This document shows, piece after piece, positions 19,657 to 23,556 of a DNA stretch of 64,000 nucleotides. Each line of letters opens with the position of its first letter. Position 1 is the first letter of the stretch. The stretch comes from Escherichia coli (lineage in GTDB: Bacteria; Pseudomonadota; Gammaproteobacteria; Enterobacterales; Enterobacteriaceae). A model generated the notes under the pieces. The model was given only the letters and a program-made list of their open reading frames with translations, made no database searches and had not been told where the DNA came from. The DNA lies in NCBI RefSeq assembly GCF_050920415.1, contig NZ_CP169309.1; one strand, written 5' to 3'. The position numbers were made by a program, and so were the translations under genes.

Positions 19657-19823
19657 TTCGTAGACAAACATATTCACGTTTTTGAATTTGGACGTGCTAT
19701 TGTGACGGTTAGACGGGTGTTTACATATTGTGAACACTCGTGTGATCAACTACTATAGAAAAATAAAACCGAAGGAACGGGTAGTCCAGGCTTAGTCATT
19801 CAGGCGCTGATAAGGAAGTTAAA

Positions 19824-20135
19824 ATGCACATCATTTCTAAAGCGCCATTTGAAGAGTCTGCGCGTAAATATCCTAACGACGCTCTGGCTCTACACTCATT
19901 GTATCGGGTTATTAAGGAAACGGATTTTTCTACGCCAGAAGAAATGCGAACGGCGTTTCCCAACCTCGACAATTTTAAATATCGCAATAAATGGTACGTT
20001 CTGGATGTAGGCGGGAACAATCTTAGGGTTATTGCCTACATAAACTTTGTTAATAAGCGGTTCTTTGTGAAGCACATAACGAATCATGCCGAGTATGACA
20101 AACTGACACGTTACTACAGAGAGAACAAAGAATGA
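19824..20135 (+). CDS. HigB-family type II toxin (RelE/ParE-superfamily mRNA interferase), accessory gene
   Basis: 103-aa ORF; FPNLDNFKY...VGGNNLRVIAY...HITNHAEYD pattern resembles HigB as I recall it; AAGGAAG Shine-Dalgarno; toxin-first order; 4-bp ATGA overlap with the downstream antitoxin. Confidence 0.75.
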   Translation: MHIISKAPFEESARKYPNDALALHSLYRVIKETDFSTPEEMRTAFPNLDNFKYRNKWYVLDVGGNNLRVIAYINFVNKRFFVKHITNHAEYDKLTRYYRENKE

Positions 20136-20551
20136 CTGCTAATGCTGCACGCGCTGTTAAAGCAACAAGAGAACTGGTCAATGCAGTCCCCTTTCTGGGA
20201 GGCAGTGACTCAGAAGATGATTATCGTGAAGCACTGGAACTGGTCGAATATTTGATTGAAGAAGATGACACCAATCCACTTATCGACTTTCTGGCGAGCC
20301 GTATTGCAGAATATGAAAACAACCACGAAAAGTTTGCAGAGTTCGATAAAGCCGTTGCAGCAATGCCGATTGGCGTGGCGTTACTTCGCACGCTGATTGA
20401 TCAACATAATCTGACCTATGCGGATTTGAAGAACGAAATCGGCTCTAAATCCCTGGTCAGTCAGATTTTGTCTGGACAAAGATCCCTGACGATATCCCAC
20501 ATTAAGGCACTTTCAGCCCGATTTGGCGTTAAGCCGGAATGGTTTCTTTGA
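20132..20551 (+). CDS. HigA-family antitoxin with C-terminal XRE-type helix-turn-helix
   Basis: 139-aa ORF; C-terminal SKSLVSQILSGQRSLTISHIKALSARFGV HTH; start overlaps toxin stop. Confidence 0.75.
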   Translation: MTANAARAVKATRELVNAVPFLGGSDSEDDYREALELVEYLIEEDDTNPLIDFLASRIAEYENNHEKFAEFDKAVAAMPIGVALLRTLIDQHNLTYADLKNEIGSKSLVSQILSGQRSLTISHIKALSARFGVKPEWFL

Positions 20552-20578
20552 TTTTTGACAGATGCCAAACGCCAGATT

Positions 20579-20658
20579 GCCCGATGTGCTGCGCTTATCG
20601 GGCCTACATGTCGCACGAACTATGTAGGCCGGATAAGGCGTTCACGCCGCATCCGGCA
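20579..20658. repeat. BIME: two REP elements in opposite orientation
   Basis: GCCCGATGTGCTGCGCTTATCGGGCCTACA and TGTAGGCCGGATAAGGCGTTCACGCCGCATCCGGCA are typical REP palindromes. Confidence 0.8.
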
Positions 20659-20665
20659 CGTTTGC

Positions 20666-23556
<2,891 letters not shown>

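What the first reader, a model, noticed from the sequence alone, without database searches (positions are those of the whole stretch)
19824..20551. HigB/HigA-like toxin-antitoxin module inserted between the hyc operon and ascB
A 103-aa ORF with a HigB-like pattern (FPNLDNFKY, VGGNNLRV, HAEYD) is followed, with a 4-bp ATGA overlap, by a 139-aa ORF whose C-terminus is an XRE-type helix-turn-helix. The toxin-first order is the HigBA hallmark. From my memory of the K-12 gene numbering (b2716 ascB, b2717 hycI consecutive), this pair is absent from K-12 at this position. It is a paralog rather than the canonical higBA locus and is flanked downstream by a BIME (20579-20658).
Basis: partly seen in the sequence, partly recalled or inferred. 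Interest (0 to 1): 0.6.

Follow-up and report, generated by a model that had tools for sequence, protein, structure and literature searches.

The report
SehAB-like HigBA toxin-antitoxin pair
Two small overlapping genes between hycI and ascB are an intact, strain-variable toxin-antitoxin pair of the HigBA family whose toxin most resembles Salmonella SehA; it is an ordinary kind of element that has not been studied at this E. coli site.

Summary
A 103-aa ORF (19824-20135) and a 139-aa ORF (20132-20551) overlap by ATGA and fill a 1009-bp hycI-ascB gap. That gap is 158 bp in K-12.

The toxin matches Pfam HigB_toxin PF09907 (4.6e-23). The antitoxin has a C-terminal HTH_3 domain. Both align end to end with the solved K-12 HigB and HigA, at 39% and 46% identity.

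The closest studied relative of the toxin is Salmonella SehA, at 58% identity without gaps. All ten residues probed in SehA are identical in the window toxin, and K-12 HigB differs at five of them.

A two-palindrome operator and promoter conserved across genera is partly retained here.

The site is polymorphic among 5,426 complete E. coli genomes. About 20% carry both genes, about 26% carry only the antitoxin, and 54% carry neither. A strain identical to the window here also has an intact canonical higBA, so this pair is a true paralog. Relatives at 79% identity sit on P1-like phage-plasmids.

Verdict: a real but ordinary element, a new member of a known kind. PGAP already annotates it. I found no experimental study of it.

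The parts
19657..19823 (+). Allele-specific upstream region of the module, holding the promoter, operator and leader
   Evidence: This 167-nt stretch occurs in only 342 of 5426 E. coli genomes, mostly at 93% identity. CFT073-type strains have a different upstream sequence that shares only the operator and the -10 block.
19719..19735 (.). Candidate operator O1, the imperfect palindrome GTTTACA-TAT-TGTGAAC (inferred antitoxin binding site)
   Evidence: It is the only 100%-identical block between the window-type and CFT073-type upstream regions. It is conserved as GTT(C/T)ACATATTGT(A/G)AAC in most of the 13 upstream regions aligned, which come from 9 other genera and a plasmid (alignment A3). Binding has not been tested.
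19728..19756 (+). Predicted sigma-70 promoter: -35 TTGTGA (19728-19733), 17-nt spacer, -10 TACTAT (19751-19756)
   Evidence: The T1, A2 and T6 positions of the -10 and the TATTG core of the -35/O1 are invariant in A3. The hexamers match 8 of 12, below the 9 of 12 needed by the consensus scan, which reported nothing on the + strand. This part is inferred.
19812..19818 (+). Shine-Dalgarno sequence AAGGAAG for the toxin gene
   Evidence: Read directly from the sequence. It lies 5 nt upstream of the ATG at 19824.
19824..20135 (+). Toxin gene, 103 aa, HigB_toxin family, SehA-like subfamily
   Evidence: Pfam PF09907 at 4.6e-23. K-12 HigB structure 5IFG_A at 7e-22 and 39% identity. SehA at 58% identity with no gaps. 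All ten residues probed in SehA are identical. Between the window and CFT073 alleles there are 7 synonymous and 1 nonsynonymous codon differences.
20132..20551 (+). Antitoxin gene, 139 aa, with an N-terminal dimerisation and toxin-binding domain and a C-terminal XRE HTH
   Evidence: HTH_3 at 7.9e-9 over residues 85-138. K-12 HigA structure 5IFG_B at 3e-35 and 46% identity. SehB at 45% identity. Between alleles there are 10 synonymous and 3 nonsynonymous codon differences.
20132..20135 (+). ATGA stop/start overlap (translational coupling)
   Evidence: Seen in the sequence. The same 4-bp overlap occurs at sehAB and in the closest loci of other genera; nearly all 83 fetched loci carry the antitoxin just downstream.
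20561..20662 (.). REP/BIME flanking the module; not part of it
   Evidence: It is repeated a median of 37 times per genome in 5425 of 5426 genomes and is present at the same site in K-12. A sub-threshold match to naRNA4 falls at 20627-20671.

Best explanation
This is an intact chromosomal type II toxin-antitoxin operon of the HigB(PF09907)/HigA family. It belongs to the 103-aa subfamily that includes Salmonella SehAB.

One promoter (-35 at 19728-19733, -10 at 19751-19756) drives the toxin gene first. The antitoxin gene follows and is translationally coupled through the ATGA overlap.

By homology with K-12 HigA and SehB, the antitoxin dimerises through its N-terminal domain, binds and neutralises the toxin, and represses the operon through its C-terminal HTH. 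The likely operator is the palindrome that overlaps the -35.

When the antitoxin is depleted, free toxin slows growth by lowering translation capacity. I commit to the SehA-type route as marginally the most likely molecular step. In that route the toxin does not cut RNA itself. [quoted passage not shown]

Shown here: gene structure, family membership, closeness to SehA, conservation of the residues needed for SehA toxicity, purifying selection, and a conserved operator and promoter.

Inferred, not shown: toxicity, neutralisation, autoregulation and the molecular target.

I put the toxin-antitoxin identity at about 0.95. The confidence given for this explanation refers to the RNase III step.
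For: - Family: Pfam HigB_toxin and HTH_3, plus full-length matches to the solved K-12 HigB-HigA complex.
- Closeness to SehA: 58% identity over all 103 residues with no gaps, against 39% to K-12 HigB. An NJ tree puts the window toxin and SehA in one large clade, with K-12 HigB as a distant outlier.
- SehA identity: the SehA sequence was confirmed as Q8ZKT3_SALTY. Peptides derived from the primers in PMC7160566 Table 2 agree with it.
- Residues: those whose alanine substitution abolishes SehA toxicity are Y53, D61, H88, Y91, K93, T95, Y97 and Y98 (PMC12817084). All are identical in the window toxin. K-12 HigB lacks D61, K93, Y97 and Y98.
- Antitoxin: the eight SehB residues needed for repression and dimerisation (Y32, L42, L52, I60, S107, L121, L129, F140) align with identical residues here.
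- Operator and promoter: conserved in most of the 13 aligned upstream regions.
- Coding constraint: synonymous changes far outnumber nonsynonymous ones between alleles.
- Architecture: in the closest loci of other genera the antitoxin starts at the same 4-bp overlap, and nearly all 83 fetched loci have it just downstream.
Against: - Nothing here was tested experimentally.
- The RNase III mechanism rests on one 2026 paper from one laboratory. That paper did not assay ribosome-dependent cleavage in vitro.
- H88 and Y91 are invariant across the whole family, K-12 HigB included. They resemble the acid-base pair of ribosome-dependent RelE-type RNases.
- K-12 HigB cleaves only translated mRNA in vivo (PMC2814082).
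- The antitoxin is no closer to SehB (45%) than to K-12 HigA (46%).
- 58% identity does not guarantee the same target.
- The second operator copy (O2) is conserved in other genera but degenerate in this allele, so regulation may differ.
- About 1,400 genomes have lost the toxin and kept the antitoxin, so the toxin is dispensable.
Confidence: 0.45

Rival explanations
1. The operon and its regulation are the same, but the toxin is a classic ribosome-dependent mRNA endonuclease like K-12 HigB (YgjN). It enters the ribosomal A site and cuts translated mRNA, which stops translation directly.
For: - The toxin is in the same Pfam family as K-12 HigB and matches it over its full length.
- K-12 HigB cleaved translated mRNA only, in a RelE-like pattern (PMC2814082).
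- Basic and acid-base type residues K52, K56, R68, H88, E90, Y91 and D92 are invariant in the alignment that includes K-12 HigB.
- SehA was tested only on naked RNA in vitro, and a ribosome-dependent RNase would not cut naked RNA.
Against: - Identity to K-12 HigB is only 39%, against 58% to SehA.
- For SehA, sequencing of RNA 5' ends found no excess of 5'-OH ends in mRNAs, and toxicity depended on rnc.
- Residues specific to the SehA clade and needed for its toxicity (D61, K93, Y97, Y98) are present here and absent from K-12 HigB.
Confidence: 0.4
2. The pair is a decaying, functionally silent remnant. It would be an addiction module left behind by a phage-plasmid or other mobile element, kept only because losing the antitoxin first is lethal, and with no present cellular role.
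For: - The site is highly polymorphic. 54% of genomes lack the module, and about 26% keep only the antitoxin after at least two different deletions.
- Copies at 79% identity sit on P1-like phage-plasmids and in a Cronobacter phage.
- Operator O2 is degenerate in this allele.
- The canonical higB shows the same pattern of a truncated toxin next to an intact antitoxin in many strains (Dataset S1 of PMC3464220).
Against: - Both ORFs are intact here and in about 1,090 genomes.
- Synonymous differences outnumber nonsynonymous ones, 7:1 and 10:3.
- Promoter, Shine-Dalgarno sequence and operator O1 are retained.
- All residues critical for toxicity are conserved.
Confidence: 0.1
3. The module's biological role is abortive-infection defence against phage, like the HigB-containing PD-lambda-2 system. 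This concerns the role and can coexist with either molecular mechanism.
For: PADLOC profiles PD-Lambda-2_A (1.9e-15) and the N-terminal part of PD-Lambda-2_B (1.4e-14) match the two proteins. Several toxin-antitoxin systems do defend against phage (PMC9519451).
Against: PD-lambda-2 needs an HTH-peptidase fusion and a third gene. Here the antitoxin covers only positions 9-115 of the 402-position B profile, and no third gene follows: the next features are a REP element and ascB. No defence island surrounds the pair. The neighbours are hyc and asc.
Confidence: 0.1

Closest known systems
Salmonella Typhimurium SehA/SehB (STM4031/STM4030.S; PMC12817084, PMC7160566)
   Same: - The toxin-first operon has the same 4-bp overlap.
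- Both toxins are 103 aa and are 58% identical with no gaps.
- All ten residues probed in SehA are identical.
- Both antitoxins have an N-terminal dimerisation domain and a C-terminal HTH, and all eight residues probed in SehB are conserved.
- Each upstream region has two palindromes of 7-nt arms separated by 3 nt.
   Different: - The chromosomal site differs. sehAB lies in the fdhE-yiiD region next to another toxin-antitoxin pair.
- The antitoxins are only 45% identical.
- The palindrome sequence differs: GTTTTCA-N3-TGAAAAC at sehAB against GTT(C/T)ACA-TAT-TGT(A/G)AAC here. Cross-regulation is therefore unlikely.
- The window toxin falls in a sister sub-lineage with Klebsiella, Kosakonia, Cronobacter and Leclercia proteins.
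E. coli K-12 HigB/HigA (YgjN/YgjM; PDB 5IFG, 6KML, 5YCL; PMC2814082)
   Same: Same Pfam family, gene order, protein lengths and domain layout. The alignments run full length without gaps.
   Different: Identity is only 39% for the toxin and 46% for the antitoxin. The locus is different (rlmG-fadH), and both loci coexist intact in the strain that is identical to the window. K-12 HigB lacks R54, D61, K93, Y97 and Y98.
Copies on P1-like phage-plasmids of Enterobacter, Leclercia and Citrobacter, and in Cronobacter phage JK004
   Same: The same two-gene module, with the toxin 77-79% identical. PGAP annotates them the same way. Both operators are conserved upstream.
   Different: They sit on extrachromosomal phage-plasmids among tail and baseplate genes, where a maintenance (addiction) role is the natural reading. 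The window copy is chromosomal and has a degenerate O2.
PD-lambda-2 anti-phage system (PMC9519451)
   Same: Its first gene encodes a HigB-like protein, and its second begins with a HigA-like HTH domain.
   Different: In PD-lambda-2 the B protein carries a C-terminal peptidase and is itself the toxic component. A third gene, related to a P4 antitoxin, is required for defence. Neither the peptidase nor a third gene is present here.
Proteus vulgaris Rts1 HigB/HigA (the founding HigBA pair)
   Same: Toxin-first gene order, a toxin of the RelE superfamily, and an antitoxin with an HTH.
   Different: The toxin family differs. From my own knowledge, the founding HigB belongs to Pfam PF05015. PF05015 gave no hit for the window toxin even at E<=10. 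SehA is only 25% identical to it. The domain order of the antitoxin also differs (PMC7160566).

Membership tests
HigBA family, K-12 type (PF09907 toxin + HigA) | The toxin belongs to the HigB_toxin (PF09907) RelE-like family | tested here: met
   Pfam at 4.6e-23 over residues 22-93. 5IFG_A at 7e-22 over residues 1-100.
HigBA family, K-12 type (PF09907 toxin + HigA) | Inverted gene order: the toxin gene comes before the antitoxin gene in one operon | tested here: met
   Toxin at 19824-20135 and antitoxin at 20132-20551 on the same strand, with an ATGA overlap.
HigBA family, K-12 type (PF09907 toxin + HigA) | Antitoxin with an N-terminal dimerisation and toxin-binding domain and a C-terminal XRE helix-turn-helix | tested here: met
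   HTH_3 over residues 85-138. Alignment of residues 9-138 to the K-12 HigA structure at 3e-35.
HigBA family, K-12 type (PF09907 toxin + HigA) | The toxin arrests growth and the cognate antitoxin neutralises it | not testable with these tools
   This needs expression assays. The only indirect support is intact ORFs, more synonymous than nonsynonymous change and conserved toxicity residues.
HigBA family, K-12 type (PF09907 toxin + HigA) | Translation-dependent cleavage of mRNA | not testable with these tools
   Shown for K-12 HigB (PMC2814082) but disputed for the closer relative SehA (PMC12817084).
HigBA family, K-12 type (PF09907 toxin + HigA) | The antitoxin represses the operon at a palindromic operator in the promoter | tested here: inconclusive
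   A conserved palindrome overlaps the -35, and a second follows the -10 in other genera. Binding was not tested, and O2 is degenerate in this allele.
SehAB subfamily | The toxin is closer to SehA than to other characterised HigB proteins and has the same length and register | tested here: met
   58% identity over 103 of 103 residues with no gaps, against 39% to K-12 HigB. Both fall in the same clade of the tree.
SehAB subfamily | The residues required for SehA toxicity are present: Y53, D61, H88, Y91, K93, T95, Y97, Y98 | tested here: met
   All are identical at the same positions.
SehAB subfamily | Toxicity depends on RNase III, and the toxin binds its dsRBD | not testable with these tools
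   This needs an rnc deletion strain, pull-down experiments and an RNase III assay.
SehAB subfamily | Orthologous locus (fdhE-yiiD region) and a SehB-type operator GTTTTCA-N3-TGAAAAC | tested here: not met
   The chromosomal site differs and so does the palindrome sequence. The antitoxin is only 45% identical to SehB. The pair is therefore a paralogous relative, not the ortholog.
PD-lambda-2 defence system | The B component is a HigA-like HTH fused to a C-terminal peptidase | tested here: not met
   The antitoxin is 139 aa and covers only positions 9-115 of the 402-position profile. It has no peptidase domain in Pfam.
PD-lambda-2 defence system | A third gene related to a P4 antitoxin is required for defence | tested here: not met
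   The antitoxin stop is followed by a REP/BIME element and then the 3' end of ascB.
Proteus/Rts1-type HigB (PF05015) | The toxin matches the HigB-like toxin family PF05015 | tested here: not met
   PF09907 was the only Pfam family reported for the toxin, even at E<=10.

The most novel reading that the evidence does not exclude
The hyc-linked toxin, like SehA, is not a nuclease. It is a protein inhibitor of RNase III that throttles ribosome production. On this reading about one in five E. coli strains carries an RNase III-targeting toxin. The roughly one in four strains that keep only the antitoxin would hold it as immunity (anti-addiction) against the 77-79% identical toxins on P1-like phage-plasmids.
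Probability: 0.3. Interest if true: 0.55.

Novelty: new member of a known kind. Interest (0 to 1): 0.3.

Why it matters
The pair adds an unstudied paralog to the E. coli toxin-antitoxin inventory, which is mostly defined from K-12. One widely cited survey of uropathogenic strains scored and deleted only the K-12-type higBA locus in CFT073, where the toxin is already truncated. It left the intact hyc-linked pair untouched.

If the SehA report is right, this pair gives E. coli genetics direct access to a toxin that inhibits RNase III. The natural alleles at this site (complete, antitoxin-only, absent) would allow tests of toxin loss and of cross-immunity with phage-plasmid copies.

If the SehA report is wrong, this is simply one more ribosome-dependent mRNA interferase.

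Tried and rejected
- NCBIfam gave no family for the toxin and only a chance hit for the antitoxin.
- The consensus promoter scan found nothing on the + strand, and the repeat finder reported no inverted repeat upstream. The operator and promoter became visible only through cross-genus alignment.
- The scan of GTDB genomes did not return Salmonella LT2, because the peptide patterns built from my alignment exclude SehA (IPSLDNFK, DVSGN). I recovered SehA by searching with a sequence recalled from memory used only as a probe. I then confirmed it by exact look-up (Q8ZKT3_SALTY) and against primer-derived peptides.
- The SehA paper has no supplement held as text.
- A literature search on higB, hycI and ascB together, and a search on the RefSeq protein accessions, found nothing about this locus.
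- I considered that the CFT073 higBA deletion of Norton and Mulvey had already tested this pair. I rejected this because their primers encode CYIREVMTHKEYD, which is the canonical locus.
- I considered membership of PD-lambda-2 and rejected it.
- I considered a simple insertion into a K-12-like empty site. This is not supported, because K-12 keeps remnants of the neighbouring ORF. However, the CTGA repeat at the module's borders fits either an insertion or a deletion.
- The 251-aa and 142-aa neighbours in CFT073 have no Pfam or PADLOC match.
- I did not run structure prediction, because a full-length match to solved structures makes the fold secure.
- I did not check how well the RNase III dsRBD is conserved between E. 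coli and Salmonella. I assume it is very high from general knowledge.

Full report
**Observation**

The window holds two same-strand ORFs, at 19824-20135 (103 aa) and 20132-20551 (139 aa). The toxin stop and the antitoxin start overlap as ATGA, and a Shine-Dalgarno sequence AAGGAAG lies 5 nt before the first ATG. The pair fills a 1009-bp gap between the hycI stop (19656) and the ascB stop (20666, minus strand). In K-12 MG1655 the same gap is 158 bp and has no gene. The downstream REP/BIME is real, since it is repeated a median of 37 times per genome in 5425 of 5426 E. coli genomes. It is also at this site in K-12, so it is a neighbour of the module and not a part of it.

**Family**

The first protein matches Pfam HigB_toxin PF09907 (4.6e-23) and no other family. 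The second has an HTH_3 domain at residues 85-138. Both align over their whole length with the crystallised E. coli K-12 HigB and HigA (5IFG: 7e-22 and 3e-35). Identity is 39% for the toxin, without gaps, and 46% for the antitoxin.

Strain MFDS1022581 is 100% identical to the window across this locus. It also has an intact canonical higB-higA between rlmG and fadH. The window pair is therefore a true paralog.

**The closest characterised relative is SehA**

A 2026 paper on the Salmonella HigB-like toxin SehA (PMC12817084) lists the residues it probed: Y53, R54, K56, D61, H88, Y91, K93, T95, Y97 and Y98. The window toxin has every one of them at the same position.

I recovered the SehA sequence in three steps. 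A sequence recalled from memory served only as a search probe. An exact look-up then showed that it is Q8ZKT3_SALTY, present on more than 1000 contigs. Peptides encoded by the published sehA primers (PFNEAM, HIVSHAE, AYYRGNKE-stop) agree with it.

The window toxin is 58% identical to SehA over all 103 residues, without gaps. A neighbour-joining tree puts both in one large clade of 103-aa toxins. K-12 HigB is a distant outlier at 34-42% identity to the clade's members. It differs at positions 54, 61, 93, 97 and 98.

The antitoxin is 45% identical to SehB, which is no closer than its 46% identity to K-12 HigA. All eight SehB residues shown to be needed for repression and dimerisation align with identical residues here. 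Those residues were chosen because they are conserved across homologs, so this is weak evidence.

sehAB lies at a different chromosomal site, in the fdhE-yiiD region. The window pair is thus a paralogous relative of sehAB and not its ortholog.

**Regulation**

Upstream regions of the module were aligned from the window, CFT073, nine other genera and a plasmid. Most of them share two copies of a palindrome, GTT(C/T)ACATA(T/A)TGT(A/G)AAC.

- The first copy, O1, overlaps a -35-like hexamer.
- A -10 hexamer follows 17 nt later. Its T1, A2 and T6 positions are invariant.
- The second copy, O2, starts right after the -10.

In the window, O1 is 19719-19735, the -35 is TTGTGA at 19728-19733, and the -10 is TACTAT at 19751-19756. 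O2 is degenerate in this allele, and about 30 extra nucleotides precede the Shine-Dalgarno sequence.

O1 is also the only block that is 100% identical between the window-type and CFT073-type upstream sequences. sehAB has the same layout with a different palindrome, GTTTTCA-N3-TGAAAAC.

This layout is typical of repression by the antitoxin. Binding itself is inferred and was not tested.

**Mechanism**

Two characterised relatives point in different directions.

- K-12 HigB cleaves only translated mRNA in vivo, in a RelE-like pattern (PMC2814082).
- SehA showed no RNase activity when the protein was alone. [quoted passage not shown] Wild-type SehA, but not the Y53A or Y91A variants, inhibited cleavage of the 16S leader in vitro. 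It caused pre-16S rRNA to accumulate, lost its toxicity in an rnc mutant, and shut translation down more slowly than RelE.

The window toxin is much closer to SehA and carries the clade-specific residues needed for SehA toxicity. I therefore rate the SehA-type route at about 0.45 and ribosome-dependent mRNA cleavage at about 0.40.

Three caveats apply. The SehA work is a single study. It did not test ribosome-dependent cleavage in vitro. H88 and Y91 are invariant in the whole family and resemble a catalytic pair.

I put the toxin-antitoxin identity itself at about 0.95. Supporting it, between the window and CFT073 alleles the toxin gene shows 7 synonymous and 1 nonsynonymous codon differences, and the antitoxin gene shows 10 and 3.

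**Population picture**

Among 5,426 complete E. coli genomes, 2,508 carry at least part of the module, always as one chromosomal copy. Of these, 1,091 cover at least 80% of it, meaning both genes. The remaining roughly 1,400 carry only the antitoxin. The window's own upstream 167 nt occurs in only 342 genomes.

| Structural allele | Example |
|---|---|
| hycI-toxin-antitoxin-ascB | the window |
| hycI-ORF251-toxin-antitoxin-ORF142-hydN, with the asc genes gone | CFT073 |
| hycI-ORF251-antitoxin-ascB | WP3-W18-CRE-03 |
| hycI-61-aa remnant-antitoxin-ascB | SF-173 |
| hycI-ascB | K-12 |

The two antitoxin-only forms arose by different deletions. Both deletions end within a few bases of each other, at about codon 93 of the toxin gene. 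Each leaves the antitoxin with its ribosome-binding region.

The K-12 spacer keeps the first and last bases of ORF251. It then joins, at a CTGA microhomology, to the sequence that follows the antitoxin. K-12 is therefore at least partly a deletion derivative. For the module itself, the CTGA repeat fits either a deletion or an insertion.

**Origin**

In other genera the closest loci keep the toxin-first order and the 4-bp overlap, and nearly all 83 fetched loci carry the antitoxin just downstream of the toxin. None of them lies next to hycI.

Related toxins occur on 1,002 plasmid records. Copies at 79% identity sit on P1-like phage-plasmids of Enterobacter, Leclercia and Citrobacter, among tail and baseplate genes. 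A 77% copy is in Cronobacter phage JK004. Horizontal origin and a maintenance role on those elements are the natural readings.

**Comparison with known systems, and novelty**

The pair meets the sequence and architecture criteria of the K-12-type HigBA family and of the SehA-like toxin subfamily.

It is not a PD-lambda-2 system. The PADLOC matches cover only the shared HigB and HigA-like parts. The peptidase fusion and the third gene that define that system are absent.

It is not the Rts1/Proteus type of HigB.

RefSeq already annotates the two genes as 'HigB family toxin' and 'helix-turn-helix domain-containing protein' or 'HigA family antitoxin'.

I found no paper on this locus. The CFT073 higBA deletion of Norton and Mulvey targeted the canonical locus. 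According to PMC7232551, CFT073 has only an orphan higA at that locus. The founding 2013 sehAB paper is marked as retracted in the library.

**Verdict**

This is a real and correctly recognised toxin-antitoxin pair. It is a new, uncharacterised member of a known kind. The useful correction is that its nearest studied relative is SehA, so its molecular target is an open question that can be tested directly. Interest is modest.

Noticed in passing
L002 1086-1841 (CFT073); remnants in K-12 at L005 4416-4573: In CFT073-type strains a 251-aa ORF sits between hycI and the module. It has no Pfam or PADLOC match. The 158-bp K-12 hycI-ascB spacer keeps its first and last bases, which suggests an internal deletion at a GATGTGC-like microhomology.
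   Followed up: partly
L003 1967-2040 and L004 2004-2032: About 1,400 complete E. coli genomes keep only the antitoxin. Two different deletions, with different 5' ends, both stop within about 6 nt of each other near codon 93 of the toxin gene. The antitoxin start region is left intact in both.
   Followed up: partly
L002 2823-3448 (CFT073): In CFT073 the asc genes are missing. A 142-aa ORF with no known domain lies between the antitoxin and hydN, and an 83-nt stretch matching the ascB 3'-end/REP region of K-12 remains further on.
   Followed up: no
window 19757-19811: The second operator copy (O2), conserved right after the -10 in other genera and on phage-plasmids, is degenerate in the window allele. 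About 30 extra nucleotides precede the Shine-Dalgarno sequence. Autorepression may be weaker or different here.
   Followed up: partly
window 20627-20671: A sub-threshold Rfam match to naRNA4 (39.6 bits against a gathering score of 59.5) falls on the REP element next to ascB. This is consistent with a REP-derived sequence and not with a separate gene.
   Followed up: no
L087-L089 2165-2790 (Salmonella): About 1.2 kb upstream of sehAB, beyond an esterase-like gene, Salmonella strains carry a second small cassette that differs between strains. One form is an HTH protein with a 103-aa protein, and the other is a PIN/RHH (VapBC-like) pair. That site is therefore also a toxin-antitoxin hotspot.
   Followed up: no
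literature (PMC3464220 Table S3 and Dataset S1; PMC7232551): The canonical higB is truncated while higA stays full length in many E. coli strains, the same decay pattern as at the hyc-linked locus. The published CFT073 higBA deletion removed that canonical remnant and not the intact hyc-linked pair.
   Followed up: yes
literature (PMC3868539): The 2013 PLoS Pathogens paper that first described sehAB and its role in virulence is flagged as retracted in the library. Later SehB and SehA papers cite it for basic facts.
   Followed up: no
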